A stretch of 64,000 nt of DNA from a virus. Lineage: Duplodnaviria; Heunggongvirae; Uroviricota; Caudoviricetes. The stretch lies in the IMG/VR virus record IMGVR_UViG_2648501802_000002; one strand, 5' to 3'. The position numbers were made by a program, and so were the translations under genes. The notes below the pieces were generated by a model. The model did not search any database and had not been told where the DNA came from. It saw only the letters and a list, made by a program, of their open reading frames with translations. How positions within the stretch are numbered: position 1 is the first letter of the stretch; each line of letters opens with the position of its first letter. This document shows positions 1,369-34,872 of this stretch, piece by piece.

Positions 1369-1677
1369 TCACCCACGATTAACCAACAGCCAGACCAGCA
1401 GACACGCCACCACCGGCACAGCAAAATCCATCAGGCTTGCCACATCCCACGCGCGCGGATCAAAACCGCCCCACCACGGCATATTCATTCGCTTGCCATG
1501 CCCGAACATTTCAATCCAGCGATATTCTGCCTGGGTGTGTTCACGCGCAATGAAGAACGTACAACCGGCTATCGCCCCGTAAGCCCAGTTCCCGGTAAAA
1601 AGACCAATCAGTAGCTGCGCAGCCACAGCACAAAGCGCATGAAGGAAAGGTGTTATATCCATTTTCATCCTACCCAA
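1369..1677 (-). CDS. Hypothetical membrane protein, 102 aa
   Basis: Hydrophobic segments; the overlapping plus-strand ORF 1229..1582 looks non-coding. Confidence 0.35.
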   Translation of the reverse strand: MGRMKMDITPFLHALCAVAAQLLIGLFTGNWAYGAIAGCTFFIAREHTQAEYRWIEMFGHGKRMNMPWWGGFDPRAWDVASLMDFAVPVVACLLVWLLVNRG

Positions 1678-1698
1678 TAAAACGGGGCGCTCGGCCCC
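1670..1698 (-). terminator. Putative rho-independent terminator after tail-fibre operon
   Basis: GGGGC/GCCCC stem (1684-1698) followed on the minus strand by a U-rich tract. Confidence 0.45.
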
Positions 1699-1704
1699 TT
1701 AATA

Positions 1705-2745
1705 TTATTTAGACGCAAGCGCCGCCTCAATTGCAGATAATCTTTGTCTTAATTCTGCGTTTTCTTCTTCCAGTGCTGTTATTCTGTCGTCTGACTCTCT
1801 GGCTACCTGAACAAGCAAGCCAGTAACACCAGAATAATCTACTGTGTAATAACGTTCACCTTCTTCACCTTCCGATCCGCTTGCACCGTCCTGATATTTC
1901 ATTGCGGAACCTACAACTTCTGGGATTGCTTCCAGAGCTTCCTGTGCAATGACACCAGCATAGGGCATACCGTTTTCTTTAAGCGTGTATGTATAGCCGT
2001 TCATTTTACGGATGCGGTCGGTTGCATTATCGATCACCTGAATGTTGTCTTTCAGATCCCGGTCGGAATGCTGGTTAAATGCGGTGGCATGACATGCACC
2101 ATTAACGCTTAACATATAGGTGTTATCGGTATTTTTCTGCGCATAGAACATATAAGCGCCACCATCAACACCGACTTCATAAACAACAGGACGGCTGGTG
2201 TTGCCCCACAATTGAGCAGTAACACCAGCATAAGCGGTTCCCTGTGTGTTTAATGTCATGGTTGACCCATGATTGGCATATTTGATCTGTAATGTGTCGG
2301 TGTAATCAAATTTAATAAGCGCGCTACTTCCACGCTTGCTGTATGACATAAGGCAGTTACCCATTTTGAGGTATCCGCTGTCACCGGGAAAAATCATCGT
2401 ACCGCCATAAAGGTTGGTAAAGTCCCAGCAAATGTTTGTCCCGTTATCGTTCAGGTTAAGGCGCGCCATTGCGTTACCTGGACTGTCTATCCATTTTTTG
2501 AGGTATAGTTCGCAATACGCATCCTCAACACCTGCCGTCCTGTGAGTTGAGCGGAGTTTTCTCCCAAATATAGCTCCGCTAGTTGGCAATACCTGCTGAT
2601 ACCATGAAGCAGACCAGTCACCAACGATTTCATCTTTGCTGTCTACATATAATTTTGTTGCGTAGCTTCCTTGATCGTTTTTTAATTTGCTAACGTCGGA
2701 TTTTAGCGTTTTGATGTCATCAGGAATTACTGTCGATGTAGCCAT
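1705..2745 (-). CDS. Tail fibre/tailspike protein with C-terminal intramolecular chaperone (peptidase S74-like) domain
   Basis: C-terminus SDRDLKDNIQVIDNATDRIRKMNGYTYTLKENG...AGVIAQEALEAIPEVV matches the auto-processing chaperone domain of endosialidase/L-shaped tail fibres. Confidence 0.6.
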   Translation of the reverse strand: MATSTVIPDDIKTLKSDVSKLKNDQGSYATKLYVDSKDEIVGDWSASWYQQVLPTSGAIFGRKLRSTHRTAGVEDAYCELYLKKWIDSPGNAMARLNLNDNGTNICWDFTNLYGGTMIFPGDSGYLKMGNCLMSYSKRGSSALIKFDYTDTLQIKYANHGSTMTLNTQGTAYAGVTAQLWGNTSRPVVYEVGVDGGAYMFYAQKNTDNTYMLSVNGACHATAFNQHSDRDLKDNIQVIDNATDRIRKMNGYTYTLKENGMPYAGVIAQEALEAIPEVVGSAMKYQDGASGSEGEEGERYYTVDYSGVTGLLVQVARESDDRITALEEENAELRQRLSAIEAALASK

Positions 2746-2754
2746 TTTTCTTCC

Positions 2755-3036
2755 TCACATCCAGCCACGAAGTTGATGCTCAACAGCAACCACGTATTCA
2801 TCGAATAATGACGATATTTGCGAATCATTAATGATGCGCACGTTTACAAAATATCCGTCTTCCTTAACACATACCGGTTCGCCATCTTCAGTCAGTTCTC
2901 CGGTTTCTTTGTACACGTTACCTATCACGTCAATAAGAATATCATCCTGCATCGACTCGTCATCATAATAGCCAGTGCTATCCATAAAGGCCGAAAAGTC
3001 GGCCCTGTCGGCAAATTTGAGTGTTAAATCTTTCAT
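2755..3036 (-). CDS. Hypothetical protein, 93 aa, between the two tail-fibre genes
   Basis: ORF abuts stf; acidic; no family recognised. Confidence 0.35.
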   Translation of the reverse strand: MKDLTLKFADRADFSAFMDSTGYYDDESMQDDILIDVIGNVYKETGELTEDGEPVCVKEDGYFVNVRIINDSQISSLFDEYVVAVEHQLRGWM

Positions 3037-5411
3037 TAGATTGACTCCCCCACCTGAGCATCAGTCAATGCCTTGTGCCATATTCTGAAATTCCTGACAT
3101 GACCAAATAAATGACGTAACCCGGCTGTAGTCTGGCCTCCAATACGGATAATTGCGGTGTTCTGAATACAGGACCATGTGGTTTTTGTTTCGCTGGATAT
3201 ATGCCCGTTACTTACTGAGCACGTAGACTGCTCTGACTTTACACGCATCCCCATAACCATTTTTTCAAGCGATGCGTTTTCGTTTACCCGTCTGTTAGCT
3301 CCTCCAATATCGCAATAAGGAAATCCGTCGTAATCTGTTGAACGACCGAAGCCAAGAATAATAGCCGCTCCGGTTTGATGACCGCCGGTATCAAAAACAC
3401 GTGGCGCTGCATTTGGCGTTTTATACCAGTTCTTATGTACCTCACAAAGAACCGTAAAAGGAAGATTATAAAGATTATTCTTAATTGGAACTGTAACTAT
3501 ATCGCTTGCGCGGGTCGCCGCCGTCGCTCCTGATATAATAAAAGATGATACACAAGGCCCATCTTCTACTTGTGGGGTGGCCAGATAAATATAGTCACCA
3601 GATACGGTTGCCCCGCTCTGCTTAGGAGAATACTGTATCTGAGAGCCTATTTTTAGCTCCCCATCAATTGCCTGAATTGTTGCCTCTGCAAAAATCCATC
3701 CGGTAGCTTCGTCCTTTCTGACTCTCGCTGTAATCCTTGAGGCAGCACCGCCTGTCATATTAATTTCAAGCGTTTGTGTATCAATATACGCATCACCAAG
3801 AAAAGTTGTTGCGCTACCGTCATATTTATCAAACCGGATACGCAACCTTACCTGCAGTTCTGTTTTAAAACGACATGAGGTTGTCACGTGTTTATTATCG
3901 CCTGAGACATCAACTGACTTTGTTGCAGCAATTGATGCCATATTAATGGCTGAGGTTTGCCCAATCAGAGAATCGTTGCAGACAAACTTTCCATAGGTAA
4001 AACCAAAATTATCCGTCCCTGTTTCGGGCACATCCATATTTGAAGATCGCCCCCAACTGGCAGGGCTTTCCGAATTGAGCATGTAGTTTGTTCTTTGCCC
4101 CTCAATAAGCAGGCCATCACGTTCAAATCGTGGCTCGTCAATGGCAGCCTCTGTCAGCACACCAGATTTGTTAATATAGGTTGCTTTCGATGCACGTTTA
4201 AACTTAACAATCTTGTCGCCAGGCATCGTTATTTCATCGTCACCAATAACAATTTTTTTATATGACGGCGAAAAGCCCGTAATCATATCCAGCGAATCGT
4301 TAAATGGTATCCACACATCAGGCAGCGGCTGTAAGACATATTTATACGGCTCCGCAGCCTGGCTTGCGTACTCTCTGGCTGCATCTTCGCTTGCTTTAGC
4401 TGCCGTCTGGCTTGCTGCCGATGCTTTCGCTGAGTTCGCAGCCGCTGTTTCGCTCACCTTTGCGTTGGTTTCACTGGTTTTTGCTGCTTTTTGACTGTTA
4501 GCTGATGCAGTGGCAGAAGCAGCCGCCGCGCTTGCAGAACTGGCTGCGGCACTCTCGCTTTGAGCCGCTGCATCCTGACTGCTTTTCGCCGCAGTTTCAC
4601 TGGCTTTGGCATTCGTTTCACTGGTCTTCGCTGCCGTCTGGCTGGACTTTGCGTTAGTTTCACTCGTCTTCGCAGCTTTCTGGCTGTTAGCCGTAGCAGT
4701 TGCTGATCCAGCTGCTGAAGTCGCAGAACCGGCTGCCGCGCTCTCGCTTTGGGCTGCTGCAACCTGGCTGTTTTTTGCCGCAGTTTCACTGGCTTTGGCA
4801 TTCGTTTCGCTGGTCTTCGCTGCCGTCTGGCTGGACTTTGCGTTGGTTTCGCTCGTCTTTGCGGCTGTCTCGCTATTTTTCGCGTTGGTTTCTGATTTTT
4901 TAGCTGCTGTTGCGGAGTTTGCCGATGCAGTCTGCGAGGCCGCTGCCGCCTGTGCGCTGTTAGCTGCATTCGTTTCTGAGGTTTTCGCCGCGTTCTTCGA
5001 TGATGCCGCTGCAGTTTCGGATTTCTTTGCCGCCGCTGCGCTCTGAGAGGCGGCTTCAGCGTTGCGTGCCGCTTCTTCCACCATTTCCTCAAAACGACGC
5101 AATGCCTCCGGCATGACATCATCTTCCGTCATGGCACCGAGAAAATCATTCAGCGTACCTGGTCTGGAACCTTCATAGACGGTAATGGTCCCGGCATGTG
5201 AAGGCGGAAAACCTTCAACCAGCAGGGTGACGCTGTACTGACCATACTCAACATCCATGCTGTAACGCCCGGCTTCATCCGGATTTTCAGAGGCCACCGT
5301 GTTCACCAGTACCGTGGTGCTGTTACGCTTTGCCTTCAGTTGAATAGTGCAGTTCTGTATTGGTTTTCCCGCACCATCTTTCAGCACACCTGAGATTTTT
5401 ACTGCTGCCAT
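3036..5411 (-). CDS. stf: Side tail fibre protein (lambda Stf-like)
   Basis: N-terminus MAAVKISGVLKDGAGKPIQNCTIQLKAKRNSTTV... matches lambda Stf; likely ATG at 5411 with GGAG 5 nt upstream (ORF-track GTG at 5417). Confidence 0.85.
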   Translation of the reverse strand: MAAVKISGVLKDGAGKPIQNCTIQLKAKRNSTTVLVNTVASENPDEAGRYSMDVEYGQYSVTLLVEGFPPSHAGTITVYEGSRPGTLNDFLGAMTEDDVMPEALRRFEEMVEEAARNAEAASQSAAAAKKSETAAASSKNAAKTSETNAANSAQAAAASQTASANSATAAKKSETNAKNSETAAKTSETNAKSSQTAAKTSETNAKASETAAKNSQVAAAQSESAAAGSATSAAGSATATANSQKAAKTSETNAKSSQTAAKTSETNAKASETAAKSSQDAAAQSESAAASSASAAAASATASANSQKAAKTSETNAKVSETAAANSAKASAASQTAAKASEDAAREYASQAAEPYKYVLQPLPDVWIPFNDSLDMITGFSPSYKKIVIGDDEITMPGDKIVKFKRASKATYINKSGVLTEAAIDEPRFERDGLLIEGQRTNYMLNSESPASWGRSSNMDVPETGTDNFGFTYGKFVCNDSLIGQTSAINMASIAATKSVDVSGDNKHVTTSCRFKTELQVRLRIRFDKYDGSATTFLGDAYIDTQTLEINMTGGAASRITARVRKDEATGWIFAEATIQAIDGELKIGSQIQYSPKQSGATVSGDYIYLATPQVEDGPCVSSFIISGATAATRASDIVTVPIKNNLYNLPFTVLCEVHKNWYKTPNAAPRVFDTGGHQTGAAIILGFGRSTDYDGFPYCDIGGANRRVNENASLEKMVMGMRVKSEQSTCSVSNGHISSETKTTWSCIQNTAIIRIGGQTTAGLRHLFGHVRNFRIWHKALTDAQVGESI
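4430..5000 (-). repeat. In-frame tandem repeats inside stf (about 160-bp unit, about 3 copies) encoding Ala/Ser/Thr-rich AAKTSETNAKSSQTAAK... units
   Basis: Repeated protein blocks ANSQKAAKTSETNAKSSQTAAKTSETNAKASETAAK; boundaries approximate. Confidence 0.5.
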
Positions 5412-29158: not shown

Positions 29159-32100
29159 AAGAACTGTGCTATGGATCTGTTTGCAGTGGAATTGAAGCCG
29201 CGAGTATTGCCTGGGAACCGTTGGGTATGCGTCCGGCGTGGTTTGCTGAAATAGAGCCTTTTCCATCTGCCGTTCTTGCGCACCGCTGGCCCCATGTCGC
29301 CAACCTTGGCGACATGACAAAACTCGCCCAAAAAGTCCAGGCTGGAGAAATTGAAGCCCCTGATGTGCTGGTGGGAGGGACACCATGTTTTACCGCGGGG
29401 CATATGGTTCTTTGTAAAAATGGTTATAAACCAATAGAAGATGTTTGCCCTGGCGATTACGTAGTCAGTCATCTCGGGCGGTTACAACAAGTAAAAAGAG
29501 TTGGTTCAAAAATAGCTAATACGGGGTTACTTAATGCCGTTGGGCAGCCTTTAGGTATAAGAACAACCAATGACCATCCCTTCCTGGCGGTTCGGTGGAA
29601 AGCCCAAAACACCCGGAAAAATGGCACATATTTTAAGAGAGAGTTGTTGTCTGAACCGGAATGGCGAGCAGCATGTGATATGCCGGGATATCAATGGTGT
29701 GCTCTAACTAATTTCAATATTGCATCTCCAGATATTTGTTCTCGGTTCTTGTCTGAAGAACAGGCTATGTATCTTGCGGGCGCTTATGTTGGCGATGGAT
29801 ATATTAGGAGATGGAAAGGTAAATCTAAGAAGGCGGTTGTTTTTGGCATAAATTGCCAGAAGTTGAGAAAGTTTCATTGCCGCATACCAGAAAACATATT
29901 TTCCGTGGCAAGCGAAATCCGAGGGAGCATCAAAGTAACCTTGAATGATACGTGTTATGCCAATTGGCTTAATGAACATTTTGGCGAGTTAAGCCATGCT
30001 AAGCGTATCCCTGCATGGGTGATGTCGCATCCATTGCGTCATGTGTTTTTACAAGGCTATCTTGATACTGATGGGACACCAAGTGGTAAAGCGGGATTTA
30101 GAATTAATAGTGTTAGTCCTGCGCTTGCTTGGGGCGTTGCGGAGTTGTCACAGACTTGTGGTTATGTTTCTTCGGTCAGCTTTATTGAAGTTGAGCCCAA
30201 AAAAGTGATTGAGGATCGCGTGGTAAATCAACGGAATTATTATCAGGTAACAATCTGCCCGCAGAAATTGTCACGTAAATCAAGATTGGCTCATGGAATG
30301 CTTTTACGAACAGTCAAAGAGTTTAAATCGGTAGGCCTAGATACTGTATACAACATAGAAGTCGAAGGTGATCATTCCTATATCCTCAATGGTGCGGTGG
30401 TCCATAACTGTCAGGCATTCAGTATCGCTGGATTACGTGGTGGGCTTGATGATGAGCGTGGCGCGCTAACTTTAAAGTATGTGGAGCTTGCAAATGCAAT
30501 TGACGACAAACGGGCTGAGTCATTTCTCAAACCATCCGTTATCGTCTGGGAAAATGTCCCAGGAGTCTTGTCATCGGCAGATAACGCCTTCGGATGTTTC
30601 CTTGCCGGATTGGCTGGAGAAGATGCGCCATTTGAACCAGGTGATCGACCTGAATCAGGAAAAAGTAACGCGTTCTGGCGGTGGGATGTCAAAACCGGTT
30701 GCCATGCTCCAAAGTGGCCGCAGTGTGGTTGTATTTATGGACCGCAGCGAAAAGTGGCCTGGAGAATCCTTGATGCCCAATACTTCGGAGTGGCACAACG
30801 ACGCCGACGCGTGTTTGTTGTCGCAAGTGCTCGAACAGACCTCGATCCCGCAACGGTACTTTTTGAGTTCGAAGGCGTGCGCCGGAATATTGCGCCGAGC
30901 CGAAAAAAGAAGGAAATCACTTCCGCCATTATTGCAAATGGCGCTGCAATCAGTGGCGAAAGCCTAAATCCATGCCTACACGCTGACATGCCACCCGGTA
31001 TGAAATCGACGAAAGCCGTAAACGCTTTCAGGATGGCAGCATTTGGGGAATATATTGACGATGAAACCGCATCGACAGTAAAGGCAAGAGATTTTAAAGA
31101 TGCCACTGACCTTGCCGTTTTTAGCAGCACAGGAGCAGGTTTTTGGTCAGAAGGGCATGGTACATTGCGGGCACGTGAGCAAGAAAGCCATGAGCATCTT
31201 GTTACATTGGCTTTTCCTGAGCGTATGAGCGGTACACAACATGCTGCAACTAAGAATACTTCACCATCTCTAATGGCTAAAAATCCAACAGCTGTTTGCT
31301 ATGAAGTAAGAAACGCAGAAGTAGCTGTCCGCCGTCTTACCCCTGTCGAATGTGAAAGGCTGCAAGGTTTTCCTGATGGGCATACGTTGATCCCGACGGA
31401 AAAGCGTAAAAAAGTTAATTCAGATGAACTGGCATATCTTCGCAATCACTATCCAGATTTAAGCGAAGAAGAGGCCGCGATGCTTGCAGCTGACGGGCCG
31501 CGTTACAAAGCGATCGGCAATAGTATGGCAATACCAGTAATGCGCTGGATTGGCGATCGGATTACTAAGGCCGTATGTCGGCAGAAAGAAGGAAGTGAAA
31601 CAAAAGAGCGAAAAGTTAAACCAGCGGCAGAATTCGAACGGTCCATATTCAAATGGGCTGGTGGAAAATTTGGTGTTCTGGAACAAATCTTTCGCTATTT
31701 GCCAGAAGGGAAGCGCCTGATTGAACCTTTCGTTGGTGGCGGAGCTGTCTTCATGAATGCCGGATACCAGGAAAATCTGCTAAATGATGTGAATGCTGAC
31801 CTGATTAACTTTTACAAGACTCTGCAACGCGAGGCGCATTCACTTATCACTCTGGCACATCGTTTCTTCCAGGACTACAACACACAGGAAGGATACCTGG
31901 CAGTACGGAATGCGTTTAACAAACAAGTCTATGATGATTTACATCGCGCAGCGGCGTTTTTGTTCCTGAACCGACATTGTTTTAACGGATTGACGCGTTA
32001 CAACCAGGCCGGTGAGTTCAATGTCGGTTATGGGAAGTATAAAACTCCGTATTTCCCATTGCAGGAGATGGAAGCCTTCCTTGGTGCGGAAGGGCGTTCT

Positions 32101-32442
32101 GAGTTTGTATGTGGTGATTTTGCTGCGGTGATTGAAGCTGCCGGAGAAGGAGATGTCATCTTTTGCGATCCGCCGTATGAACCGCTCCCAAATACAGAGG
32201 GATTCACGAACTATTCCGGTCATGACTTTAAGTTTGAAGAGCAAAAACGCCTGGTGTCTCTGTTGACGGATGCTCATCGCCGAGGTGCAAAGGTTCTAAT
32301 TACTAACAGTGGCGCGCCAAATATCAGAGAGCTTTATCATGACAGTGGCTTCAGAGTGGAACCTCTTTTTGCCAGACGTTCTGTGTCTTGTAAGGGGGAT
32401 ACTCGAGGTGTAGCTCATGACGTTTTAGGTATATTGCTCTAA
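29155..32442 (+). CDS. dmt: Bifunctional DNA methyltransferase Dmt (N-terminal Dcm-like C5 domain interrupted by an intein; C-terminal Dam-like N6-adenine domain)
   Basis: C5 motifs: GGTP|CQAFSIAG (IV, split by intein), ENVPGVL (VI), QRRRR (VIII), GNSMAIPV (X); Dam motifs FKWAGGK and DPPY; GTG start with GGAGAGG RBS. Confidence 0.85.
29386..30408 (+). mobile_element. Intein (341 aa) with LAGLIDADG homing endonuclease, inserted before the catalytic Cys of MTase motif IV
   Basis: Block [14 protein letters not shown]...GDYV; block B TTNDHPF; LAGLIDADG motifs [11 protein letters not shown] and [10 protein letters not shown]; blocks [23 protein letters not shown] then +1 Cys. Confidence 0.9.
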
Positions 32443-32449
32443 TAAATTT
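32433..32449 (+). promoter_or_regulatory. C1 operator (perfect consensus) overlapping dmt stop
   Basis: attgctctaataaattt 17/17; TAATAT -10-like element follows. Confidence 0.7.
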
Positions 32450-32828
32450 ATTAGTGTAATATCGCCTCAATGAATCGTGATTTATAGAGCGATTTAGCTG
32501 TTAGCCGCGACAGGCGCGGCGGCAAGTATGGCGGGGTAGTGACTCCTTCCCCATCATGACGCCGAGTTGCCAGGTTGACCATACGCCTAAGTGGCAACAC
32601 CGAAGTGCGTTACGAGCTTCCAGTTTGCCCATCTTCGGGTGGGCGTTTTTTTCAGGGTTTTCGTCATGGTTAGCGACTTTGCGGCGGTTTAGAAACTGAC
32701 CATTAAAGTAAATGCAAACGATGATCTGATGATGGTAGCGGCCTAAGAAGCCAGACGCCACGGGGTATGAGTCGTCCCCCGTCAAAAAATCGACCGCAGA
32801 GTGTCCCCGTCTGTGTATTAGGGAACGG

Positions 32829-33118: not shown

Positions 33119-33194
33119 GATGGTGTAGCTCAGCGGTTAGAGCGGTTGACTGTTAATCAACGGGTCGATGGTTCAAATCCATCCACCATCGCCA
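33119..33194 (+). tRNA. tRNA-Asn (anticodon GTT)
   Basis: Cloverleaf: acceptor GATGGTG/CACCATC, anticodon loop CTGTTAA, T-loop TTCAAAT, 3' CCA. Confidence 0.9.
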
Positions 33195-33196
33195 AT

Positions 33197-33272
33197 GCCG
33201 GTTTAGCTCAGTTGGTAGAGCGCCTGCCTTGTAAGCAGGATGTCAGCGGTTCGAGTCCGTTAATCGGCACCA
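33197..33272 (+). tRNA. tRNA-Thr (anticodon TGT)
   Basis: Acceptor GCCGGTT, D-arm GCTCAGTTGGTAGAGC, anticodon loop CTTGTAA, T-loop TTCGAGT, 3' CCA. Confidence 0.9.
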
Positions 33273-33746: not shown

Positions 33747-33833
33747 GGAGAGTAGGGAGCATGGTGCTCAAGCGGTCTTGAAAGCCGTCCCGTTGCGCAA
33801 GCGATGATGGTTCGATTCCATTACTCTCCGCCA
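33747..33833 (+). tRNA. Type-II tRNA-like gene, putative tRNA-Ser (anticodon TGA), non-canonical D-arm
   Basis: Perfect 7-bp acceptor GGAGAGT/ACTCTCC, discriminator G plus CCA, T-arm GATGG-TTCGATT-CCATT, anticodon loop CTTGAAA, 17-nt variable arm; D-loop only about 5 nt. Confidence 0.5.
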
Positions 33834-34796: not shown

Positions 34797-34872
34797 GGCC
34801 CTTTAGCTCAGTGGTTAGAGCTGGCGACTCATAATCGCACGGTCACCGGTTCAAGTCCGGTAGGGGCCACCA
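34797..34872 (+). tRNA. tRNA-Ile2 (anticodon CAT, ileX-like)
   Basis: Near-identical architecture to E. coli tRNA-Ile2 (GGCCC(C)TTAGCTCAGTGGTTAGAGC...CTCATAA...), 3' CCA. Confidence 0.85.

What the first reader, a model, noticed from the sequence alone, without database searches (positions are those of the whole stretch)
29386..30408. Intein with LAGLIDADG homing endonuclease splitting the catalytic PCQ motif of the Dmt C5-methyltransferase domain
The 1095-aa dmt ORF contains a 341-aa insertion with every intein hallmark: Cys1 (CFTAGHM...), block B TTNDHPF, two LAGLIDADG motifs, C-terminal ...GAVVHN followed by Cys. Removing it joins GGTP to CQAFSIAG, an intact motif IV, so the intein +1 Cys is also the methyltransferase catalytic nucleophile and methylation would require splicing. 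The extein product (about 754 aa) is a Dcm-like/Dam-like fusion. Inteins are typically reported in replication, repair and packaging proteins; I do not recall one at this site of a DNA methyltransferase, but cannot verify that.
Basis: partly seen in the sequence, partly recalled or inferred. Interest (0 to 1): 0.85.

Follow-up and report, generated by a model that had tools for sequence, protein, structure and literature searches.

The report
Homing intein splitting P1-family Dmt methyltransferase
A 341-residue self-splicing protein insert (an intein) that carries its own DNA-cutting enzyme sits exactly at the catalytic cysteine of the cytosine-methylase half of the Dmt protein of a P1-like phage-plasmid. 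It is real and present in about 30% of P1-like elements, but it is an ordinary member of a widespread, little-described group of inteins that occupy this same site in cytosine methylases.

Summary
The ORF at 29155-32442 (+) encodes 1095 aa, and residues 78-418 (nt 29386-30408) are a clean in-frame 341-aa insertion compared with reference P1 Dmt (754 aa).

The insert has every class-1 intein hallmark:
- Cys1, block B TxxH, C-terminal His-Asn and a +1 Cys;
- two LAGLIDADG motifs, each with its acidic residue;
- a confident model (pLDDT 91.7) whose best PDB matches are PI-SceI and other intein homing endonucleases.

In-silico splicing restores GGTP-CQAFS. The +1 Cys aligns with the catalytic Cys81 of M.HhaI.

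The intein is polymorphic. It occurs in 133 of about 498 PLSDB P1-like plasmids and in 150 of 491 dmt-carrying complete E. coli genomes. Flanking SNPs are linked to it only within about 150 nt, which is a co-conversion-like signature.

Homologous inteins (23-55% identity) sit at the same motif IV P|C site in dozens of C5 methyltransferases across bacteria and viral contigs. Inteins in phage DNA methylases are already published, including a C-5 class in an actinophage survey.

I found no paper describing the P1/Dmt intein, and records annotate the protein only as a methyltransferase.

Verdict: a real intein and a new member of a known kind, of moderate interest. Splicing and homing activity are inferred, not shown.

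The parts
27888..27904 (+). C1-repressor operator (Odmt/Op68 equivalent) upstream of the uhr-hrdC-dmt operon. It is context for when the precursor is made.
   Evidence: 1-mismatch match to the C1 operator consensus. It lies at the same relative position as the annotated Odmt/Pdmt of P1 AF234172.
28139..29158 (+). hrdC/rdgC-family gene directly upstream; its stop overlaps the dmt start. The mechanical ORF is given here. The annotated P1 homologue is 906 nt, so the true start is probably near 28253.
   Evidence: ORF list and annotation of homologous records.
29155..32442 (+). dmt precursor ORF, 1095 aa: N-extein + intein + C-extein.
   Evidence: 98.5% identical to dmt of phage RCS47.
29155..29385 (+). 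N-extein (aa 1-77). C5-MTase motif I ([10 protein letters not shown], nt 29176-29205) through the Pro of motif IV (GGTP).
29386..30408 (+). Intein, 341 aa: a class-1 HINT splicing domain split by a LAGLIDADG homing-endonuclease domain.
29386..29406 (+). Intein block A (CFTAGHM). Cys1 is the first nucleophile.
   Evidence: C1, F2 and G5 are invariant in 12 homologues.
29563..29583 (+). Intein block B (TTNDHPF), containing the TxxH motif (intein T61, H64).
   Evidence: T61 and H64 invariant.
29770..29802 (+). First LAGLIDADG motif ([11 protein letters not shown]); catalytic Asp is intein D137.
   Evidence: G132 and G138 invariant; D137 in at least 90% of sequences, E in the outgroup. Helix 124-137 in the model.
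30046..30078 (+). Second LAGLIDADG motif ([11 protein letters not shown]); catalytic Asp is intein D229.
   Evidence: Pfam LAGLIDADG_3 covers intein residues 221-284. G224 and G230 invariant, D229 in at least 90%. Helix 218-229.
30346..30408 (+). Intein blocks F and G ([12 protein letters not shown]...NGAVVHN), with penultimate His340 and terminal Asn341.
   Evidence: N341, V321, N323 and V326 invariant. TIGR01443 intein_Cterm 30.8 bits against cutoff 15.6. 7cfv DnaX mini-intein alignment.
30409..30411 (+). +1 Cys (C419 of the precursor, C78 of spliced Dmt). It is both the C-extein nucleophile for splicing and the motif IV catalytic Cys of the C5 MTase.
   Evidence: Aligns with Cys81 of M.HhaI in ...FPCQAFSISG. 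Cys81 as the HhaI nucleophile is established knowledge.
30409..32439 (+). C-extein (aa 419-1095). It holds the rest of the C5 MTase (ENV nt 30547-30564, QRRRR nt 30796-30816, GNSMAIPV nt 31516-31539) and the Dam-type D12 N6-adenine MTase domain (about nt 31654-32352, DPPY nt 32167-32178).
32433..32460 (.). Bivalent C1 operator (Oban equivalent) overlapping the dmt stop; it marks the end of the operon.
   Evidence: P1 annotation.

Best explanation
This is a canonical class-1 intein with an embedded double-motif LAGLIDADG homing endonuclease. It is inserted between Pro77 and Cys78 of motif IV (PCQ) of the C5-cytosine methyltransferase domain of the bifunctional Dmt protein of a P1-like phage-plasmid. 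The uhr-hrdC-dmt operon lies behind a C1 operator, so the roughly 120-kDa precursor is probably made when the prophage is derepressed.

Inferred mechanism, by the standard class-1 pathway:
1. Cys1 undergoes an N-S acyl shift.
2. The +1 Cys attacks the thioester.
3. Asn341 cyclises and releases the intein.
4. An S-N shift restores the Pro-Cys peptide bond.

The products would be the 754-aa Dmt, with its catalytic cysteine regenerated, and a free 341-aa intein. The free intein (or the precursor) would cut intein-less dmt alleles around GGAACACCT|TGTCAGGC. Repair from an intein-bearing copy would then copy the intein and a short stretch of flank into the cut allele. This would happen when two P1-like genomes share a cell, through co-infection or superinfection of a lysogen.

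Shown here: the anatomy, conserved catalytic residues, the fold, the clean insertion, restoration of the MTase motif, the polymorphic distribution and short-range linkage of the flanks. Inferred: that splicing occurs, that the endonuclease is active, and that C5 activity depends on splicing. The C-terminal Dam domain may work in the precursor as well.
For: - Exact 341-codon in-frame insertion absent from P1 Dmt.
- Cys1, T61xxH64, H340-N341 and the +1 Cys are all present. C1, T61, H64 and N341 are invariant in 12 homologues down to 23% identity.
- Both LAGLIDADG acidic residues are conserved.
- Pfam Hint_2 and LAGLIDADG_3, and NCBIfam intein_Cterm, score above their cutoffs.
- AF2 model pLDDT 91.7, pTM 0.89. 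Best Foldseek PDB hits are PI-SceI, the TliVMA intein, PI-PfuI and PI-PkoII (E 4.5e-17 to 2e-9), followed by free LAGLIDADG enzymes I-SceI and I-DmoI.
- Splicing in silico raises the PF00145 score from 104.3 to 124.7 bits, with one match running across the junction. The Cys aligns to M.HhaI Cys81.
- Sporadic distribution: 133 intein-bearing against 362 uninterrupted among 498 PLSDB plasmids; 150 against 339 among 491 dmt-positive complete E. coli genomes.
- The intein sits on both P1-type and P7-type TRD backgrounds.
- In 26 I+ and 19 I- IMG/VR alleles, r2 between SNPs and intein presence is 1.0 at the last N-extein base (CCA in all I+, CCT in all I-). It reaches about 0.4-0.64 at several sites, though not all, from about -120 to +160 nt, and is at most 0.2 at every site beyond that.
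- Inteins are 98.9-100% identical to each other.
- Low G+C relative to the flanks.
- The same insertion site is used by homologous inteins in many C5 MTases, as expected for a homing-endonuclease lineage tied to a conserved target.
Against: - No experimental evidence of splicing or cleavage exists for this element.
- Pfam Intein_splicing (PF14890) is below its cutoff (22.1 against 35.8 bits), and Hint_2 is only just at its cutoff (28.5 against 28.4).
- The linkage pattern is equally compatible with a single ancient insertion followed by ordinary homologous recombination among P1-like plasmids. The sample is not corrected for relatedness or redundancy.
- Among five intein copies there are 8 synonymous and 6 non-synonymous variable codons, which is not a strong sign of purifying selection on the endonuclease.
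- C5 methylation by P1 Dmt is itself only annotated as 'perhaps'.
Confidence: 0.8

Rival explanations
1. The intein splices, but its endonuclease is no longer active or no longer finds a target. On this view the 30% frequency and the mosaic flanks reflect one old insertion, vertical descent and ordinary homologous recombination among P1-like plasmids, with no ongoing homing.
For: All 32 examined I+ alleles share the same -1 codon (CCA) and nearly identical inteins, which fits a single origin. Eight synonymous against six non-synonymous variable codons gives no clear selection signal. P1-like plasmids are visibly mosaic in this region anyway.
Against: Both catalytic Asp residues and the LAGLIDADG glycines are intact and conserved across homologues. 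The endonuclease domain is modelled with high confidence. The target sequence in I- alleles differs from the I+ flanks by as little as one synonymous base. Mini-inteins that lost the endonuclease exist at this site elsewhere (P0024), which shows that loss does happen when the domain is not maintained, and it has not happened here.
Confidence: 0.2
2. The insert is a non-splicing domain insertion. The 1095-aa protein would then be the final product, with a dead C5 domain and a working Dam domain, and the element would be tolerated because only Dam activity matters to the phage.
For: Host Dam or phage Dmt adenine methylation is the function known to matter for P1 (quoted in PMC11437467). C5 activity of Dmt is only 'perhaps' in the P1 annotation. 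Lab P1 carries G74W beside motif IV, and another lab record has an incomplete dmt, so the C5 part is dispensable in the laboratory.
Against: Every residue needed for the four splicing steps is intact and conserved. The C5 MTase motifs I, IV, VI, VIII and X of the extein remain intact, which is not expected if the domain had been dead since insertion. Degenerate cases look different, for example the Mannheimia copy with a truncated C-extein.
Confidence: 0.07
3. Chance open reading frame, or another kind of mobile DNA such as an IS element, a group I or II intron, or an assembly artefact.
For: None found.
Against: Identical architecture occurs in more than 130 independently sequenced plasmids and several phage genomes. 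The length is an exact multiple of three with no stops. Intein and LAGLIDADG profile matches and the fold match are significant.
Confidence: 0.01

Closest known systems
PI-SceI (S. cerevisiae VMA1 intein) and archaeal PI-PfuI, PI-PkoII and TliVMA inteins
   Same: Same two-part architecture: a HINT splicing domain interrupted by a double-motif LAGLIDADG endonuclease. Same Cys1 / His-Asn / Cys+1 chemistry. These are the best structural matches.
   Different: Only 11-17% sequence identity. The host protein is different (V-ATPase, polymerase, RNR). This intein is smaller at 341 aa and seems to lack the extra DNA-recognition region of PI-SceI; that last point is inferred from length alone.
Inteins in actinophage and mycobacteriophage DNA methylases (Kelley et al. 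2016, PMC5050341; Gosselin et al. 2023, PMC9957025; actinophage survey bioRxiv 10.1101/2025.01.02.630785)
   Same: A LAGLIDADG-type intein in an orphan phage DNA methyltransferase, sporadically distributed, with inteins less diverged than their exteins.
   Different: The characterised cases are N6/N4 (PF01555) methylases. The C-5 class is only listed as a host in the 2025 survey, and the passages I read give no insertion site. The hosts are Actinobacteria phages, not an enterobacterial phage-plasmid.
Unnamed homologous inteins at motif IV of other C5 DNA methyltransferases, found here
   Same: Same insertion point (P|C of the PC motif), same block residues, 23-55% identity. Examples are Metarhizobium album, a Mannheimia haemolytica prophage, and Lachnospiraceae, Bifidobacteriaceae, cyanobacterial and Chloroflexota genomes, plus many IMG/VR contigs. 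Nine of nine spliced hosts tested are PF00145.
   Different: The host MTases are single-domain C5 enzymes from several subfamilies (GSP|CQxxS, SPD|C(K/T)HFS, SPE|CTxxS). The P1 allele sits in a C5-Dam fusion. A few relatives use another site (ENV|C, motif VI) or other proteins.
Reference phage P1 Dmt (AAQ14041, 754 aa)
   Same: 99% identical exteins, same operon (uhr-hrdC-dmt) and same C1 operators.
   Different: It lacks the intein, carries G74W next to motif IV, and has CCT rather than CCA at Pro77.

Membership tests
Class 1 intein | Cys/Ser/Thr at intein position 1 (block A) | tested here: met
   Cys1 (CFTAGHM), invariant in 12 homologues.
Class 1 intein | Block B TxxH motif | tested here: met
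   T61-N-D-H64; T and H invariant.
Class 1 intein | C-terminal His-Asn (block G) followed by a Cys/Ser/Thr +1 residue | tested here: met
   ...VVHN|C. N341 invariant. TIGR01443 intein_Cterm 30.8 bits against cutoff 15.6.
Class 1 intein | HINT fold of the splicing domain | tested here: met
   AF2 pLDDT 91.7. Foldseek top hits are intein structures across the full length. Pfam Hint_2 28.5 against 28.4 bits.
Class 1 intein | Match to the Pfam Intein_splicing profile (PF14890) above its gathering score | tested here: not met
   22.1 bits against a cutoff of 35.8. The profile match is split by the endonuclease domain. Other curated models pass.
Class 1 intein | In-frame insertion at a conserved site, absent from orthologues; removal restores the host motif | tested here: met
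   341-column gap against P1 Dmt. GGTP|CQAFS restored, and PF00145 rises from 104.3 to 124.7 bits.
Class 1 intein | Autocatalytic protein splicing | not testable with these tools
   Needs expression and detection of the ligated exteins.
LAGLIDADG homing endonuclease (double-motif, intein-borne) | Two LAGLIDADG helices, each ending in a catalytic Asp/Glu | tested here: met
   YLAGAYVGD137G and FLQGYLDTD229G, conserved. Pfam LAGLIDADG_3 E=5.7e-9.
LAGLIDADG homing endonuclease (double-motif, intein-borne) | Pseudo-dimeric alpha-beta-beta-alpha-beta-beta-alpha fold | tested here: met
   Secondary-structure order in the model. Foldseek hits to I-SceI and I-DmoI at E of about 1e-5 to 1e-4.
LAGLIDADG homing endonuclease (double-motif, intein-borne) | Sporadic presence among orthologues, with co-conversion of flanking markers | tested here: met
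   About 27-31% of dmt alleles carry it. r2 is 1.0 at the junction, reaches about 0.5 at several sites within roughly 150 nt, and is at most 0.2 further out. Recombination after a single insertion is not excluded.
LAGLIDADG homing endonuclease (double-motif, intein-borne) | Site-specific cleavage of the intein-less allele | not testable with these tools
   Needs an in vitro or in vivo cleavage assay.
C5 cytosine DNA methyltransferase (PF00145), extein | Motifs I, IV (PC), VI (ENV), VIII (QRR) and X (GN) in order; catalytic Cys in motif IV | tested here: met
   PF00145 at 124.7 bits on the spliced protein. Motif positions. The Cys aligns with M.HhaI Cys81.
C5 cytosine DNA methyltransferase (PF00145), extein | Demonstrated m5C formation | not testable with these tools
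   The P1 annotation itself says 'perhaps at C5 cytosine'.
Dam-type D12 N6-adenine DNA methyltransferase, C-terminal extein domain | PF02086 / TIGR00571 match above cutoff, with the DPPY motif | tested here: met
   PF02086 192 bits; TIGR00571 248.8 against 114.85; DPPY at aa 1005-1008.

The most novel reading that the evidence does not exclude
The intein may be more than a passenger. Its endonuclease is probably made only on derepression, when the C1-controlled operon fires. It could then act as an interference weapon that cuts intein-less P1-like plasmids or co-infecting phages, converting or eliminating the competitor. In addition or instead, splicing could be conditional: Cys1 and Cys+1 are both thiols, so it might be redox-sensitive. 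The precursor would then supply Dam activity at once, while C5 methylation appears only after splicing, giving a post-translational timer for one of two methylation activities.
Probability: 0.15. Interest if true: 0.65.

Novelty: new member of a known kind. Interest (0 to 1): 0.4.

Why it matters
P1 is a classic model phage, and P1-like phage-plasmids are common carriers of resistance genes in Enterobacteriaceae. A homing intein present in roughly a third of them has apparently gone unremarked. The records I examined annotate the protein only as a methyltransferase, often as 'Dam family', because the intein pushes the dcm model just below its cutoff (97.4 against 100.65 bits).

There are practical consequences:
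- dmt length polymorphisms of 754, 1013 and 1095 aa in comparative P1 genomics have a simple explanation.
- Some laboratory 'P1' stocks differ from the reference at this locus.
- E. coli and P1 would give a genetically tractable natural system for measuring intein homing, co-conversion and fitness effects in a bacterial mobile element.

More broadly, the catalytic PC motif of C5 methyltransferases turns out to be a widely used intein insertion site. That fits the known rule that inteins sit at active-site residues, and it deserves an entry in intein catalogues.

Tried and rejected
- **Literature.** None describes an intein in P1-family Dmt. Hits that looked promising were irrelevant on reading. 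Novikova et al. 2016 does not mention methylases in its main text.
- **Sequence search of the PDB with the intein.** It gave only weak hits: 7cfv at E=0.0015 for block F/G and PI-PkoII at 0.054. The fold comparison was needed to settle the question.
- **Pfam Intein_splicing and Hom_end.** Both are below threshold, so they were not used as support.
- **dN/dS on the intein.** Only 14 variable codons among five copies, which is too few to be informative.
- **Alternatives considered and rejected.** Group I/II intron, IS element and assembly artefact, because the insert is in frame, has protein-level motifs and recurs in hundreds of records.
Rejected because intein-less homologues lack exactly this segment.
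- **Not done.** No metagenome-contig scan, no exhaustive representative search and no second structure prediction of the precursor. None of them would change the verdict.
Full report
**1. What is in the sequence**

The window carries an ORF at 29155-32442 on the + strand (GTG start, 1095 aa). Residues 78-418 (nt 29386-30408, 341 codons, no stop) begin with CFTAGHM and end with GAVVHN. The next residue is Cys. The insert has 42.8% G+C, against 54.5% for the 231-nt N-extein and 48.1% for the C-extein. The coordinates in the finding are exact.

**2. Where the window comes from, and the clean-insertion test**

The gene is dmt of a P1-like phage-plasmid (Punavirus).
- It is 98.5% identical over its full length to dmt of phages RCS47 and vB_EcoM-Ro157c2YLVW.
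- Reference P1, P7 and SJ46 match only outside the insert.
- A protein alignment with P1 Dmt (754 aa) shows one gap of exactly 341 columns between Pro77 and Cys419 and 99% identity elsewhere.
- The neighbourhood is the P1 one. A C1 operator lies at 27888-27904, followed by uhr, hrdC/rdgC and dmt. A bivalent C1 operator overlaps the dmt stop (32433-32460), and tRNA-Asn and tRNA-Thr follow.

By analogy with annotated P1, the operon is repressed in the prophage and expressed on derepression. This is an inference.

**3. Is it an intein?**

Profile evidence:
- Pfam finds Hint_2 at the N-terminus (28.5 bits, cutoff 28.4) and LAGLIDADG_3 (E 5.7e-9).
- Pfam Intein_splicing is below its cutoff (22.1 against 35.8).
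- NCBIfam intein_Cterm passes (30.8 against 15.6). The remaining weak hits are all to intein-containing RNR, GyrA, DnaB, RFC, RtcB and DnaE models.

Conservation evidence: a database search with the insert alone returned 26 proteins. Nearly all carry PF00145 together with Hint and LAGLIDADG domains. In an alignment of 12 of these inteins (23-52% identity to the window), the following are invariant or nearly so:
- Cys1;
- Thr61 and His64 (block B);
- the Gly and Asp residues of both LAGLIDADG motifs (G132, D137, G138; G224, D229, G230);
- block F (VYNIEV..DHSY);
- the terminal Asn341.

Structural evidence: AlphaFold2 on this alignment gives pLDDT 91.7 and pTM 0.89. Beta-rich N- and C-terminal parts flank an alpha/beta core. 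Foldseek against the PDB ranks PI-SceI, the endonuclease-bearing TliVMA and PhoVMA inteins, PI-PfuI and PI-PkoII first (E 4.5e-17 to 2e-9). Free LAGLIDADG enzymes I-SceI and I-DmoI follow.

Every sequence and fold criterion for a class-1 intein with a double-motif LAGLIDADG endonuclease is met. Activity cannot be tested here.

**4. What the exteins are**

The spliced 754-aa product has two domains:
- a C5-cytosine methylase domain (PF00145, 124.7 bits, one match running through the junction, against 104.3 bits and a broken match in the precursor);
- a D12/Dam domain (PF02086, 192 bits; TIGR00571, 248.8 bits).

Against solved structures, the junction region aligns as [16 protein letters not shown] to DILCAGFPCQAFSISG of M.HhaI. 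That places the +1 Cys on HhaI residue 81, which is the catalytic nucleophile by established knowledge. Motifs I, VI (ENV), VIII (QRRRR) and X (GNS) are intact.

That C5 activity needs splicing is a reasonable inference, because 341 residues are inserted inside the catalytic loop. It is untested, and C5 activity of P1 Dmt is itself only 'perhaps' in the P1 annotation. The Dam domain lies about 400 residues downstream and may work in the precursor. That is also an inference.

**5. Population picture**

| Collection | dmt 5' region present | Uninterrupted | With intein |
|---|---|---|---|
| PLSDB plasmids | 498 | 362 | 133 (at least 95% identity) |
| Complete E. coli genomes (5426) | 491 | 339 | 150 |

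- Five intein copies compared here are 98.9-100% identical.
- The intein occurs on both the P1-type and the P7-type target-recognition-domain backgrounds, as do intein-less alleles.
- At the junction, all 32 intein-bearing alleles examined have CCA for Pro77. All 26 intein-less alleles have CCT. Otherwise the 40 nt around the site can be identical between the two classes.
- In 26 I+ and 19 I- IMG/VR alleles, r2 between SNPs and intein presence is 1.0 at that base. It reaches about 0.4-0.64 at several sites, though not all, between about -120 and +160 nt, and is at most 0.2 at every site further away.

This is what co-conversion during homing predicts. It is also compatible with one insertion followed by recombination, and the sample is not corrected for relatedness.

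**6. How special is the site?**

Scans with the intein alignment found 72 loci in GTDB species representatives and 289 hits in IMG/VR.
- Among the full-length matches, nearly all sit at the same place, directly before the motif IV cysteine of a C5 methylase.
- Several extein subfamilies are represented: GGTP|CQAFS, GSP|CQ(D/N/S)xS, SPD|C(K/T)HFS, SPE|CTxxS, SFP|CTDVS and SCP|CQPFS.
- The hosts span Proteobacteria, Firmicutes, Actinobacteria, Cyanobacteria, Chloroflexota and Bacteroidota.
- Nine of nine spliced hosts tested are PF00145.
- Variants include a 141-aa mini-intein without endonuclease (P0024), a second insertion site after ENV of motif VI (L028, L041), and one methylase with two inteins (L041).

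The P1 intein is therefore one allele of a broad intein lineage tied to the PC motif.

**7. Literature**

- Inteins in phage DNA methylases are published for the N6/N4 class (PMC5050341; PMC9957025).
- A 2025 actinophage survey lists C-5 methylase (IPR001525) among host proteins 'previously reported'.
- I found no paper that mentions an intein in P1, P1-like elements or Dmt.
- In the records I examined the product is named only as a methyltransferase.
- The library does not cover subscription-only papers or the InBase catalogue, so an earlier mention cannot be excluded.

**8. Verdict**

The element is a bona fide, probably active class-1 homing intein at the catalytic cysteine of the C5 domain of Dmt. 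It is a new member of a known kind rather than a new kind. Its value lies in correcting annotation, in documenting a widely used intein site, and in offering a tractable E. coli/P1 system for homing experiments. Interest: 0.4.

Noticed in passing
L001 (AF234172 / NC_005856, reference P1), dmt codon 74; corresponds to window 29374-29376: Reference P1 c1-100 mod749::IS5 Dmt has Trp74 (TGG) where the window, RCS47, P7 and all 26 other intein-less P1-like alleles examined have Gly (GGG). The change is three residues before the catalytic Cys of motif IV. It may be a private lab-strain mutation affecting the C5 domain or the endonuclease target.
   Followed up: partly
L002 (OP279344.1, 'P1 isolate del res del mod'), dmt 1501-4542: A laboratory P1 derivative carries the intein together with a P7-type target-recognition region (Dmt 1013 aa). 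Lab 'P1' stocks therefore differ from the reference at this locus.
   Followed up: partly
L041 (Flexilinea sp. MAG) and L028 (Ruminococcus sp. MAG): There is a second intein insertion site in C5 methyltransferases, directly after ENV of motif VI (WENV|CGA(Y/F)SS). The L041 methylase carries two inteins, one at motif IV and one at motif VI.
   Followed up: partly
L129 (IMGVR_UViG_2898545487_000004), junction at 2547/2548: A related intein at the same site is followed by Ser instead of Cys (VVHN|SQGFS). The spliced methylase would have Ser in place of the catalytic cysteine.
   Followed up: no
P0011; L121 and L122 (Mannheimia haemolytica-type prophage): An apparently intact 340-aa intein sits in a methylase whose C-extein is truncated after about 20 residues (CQSDKGGTVKASGGGFEWRE-stop). 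The cluster is seen on 578 contigs, so the intein ORF outlives its host gene.
   Followed up: no
window 29155-32442 and RefSeq records of the same allele: PGAP names the precursor only 'Dam family site-specific DNA-(adenine-N6)-methyltransferase'. With the intein in place the dcm model TIGR00675 scores 97.4, just under its 100.65 cutoff, so the C5 domain and the intein go unannotated.
   Followed up: yes
window 33747-33833 and 34797-34872: tRNA-Ser(tga) and tRNA-Met/Ile(cat) genes lie downstream of the tRNA-Asn/tRNA-Thr pair (33119-33272) that follows dmt. Only the Asn/Thr pair appeared in the stretch of the P1 reference annotation that I viewed.
   Followed up: no
NZ_CP027223.1 35242-36263 (E. 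coli 2015C-3101 plasmid): One intein copy is 1022 nt rather than 1023, and the gene is annotated as two CDSs. This looks like a frameshifted, probably decaying allele. Three intein copies in complete E. coli genomes lie on chromosomes rather than plasmids, including a 100% match in NZ_CP007394.1.
   Followed up: no
L076 (phage P7 AF503408) 1489-1507: The P7 annotation predicts an internal late promoter (LPdam2) about halfway through the gene. It could express the Dam half independently of the intein-interrupted C5 half. I did not check whether the window conserves it.
   Followed up: no
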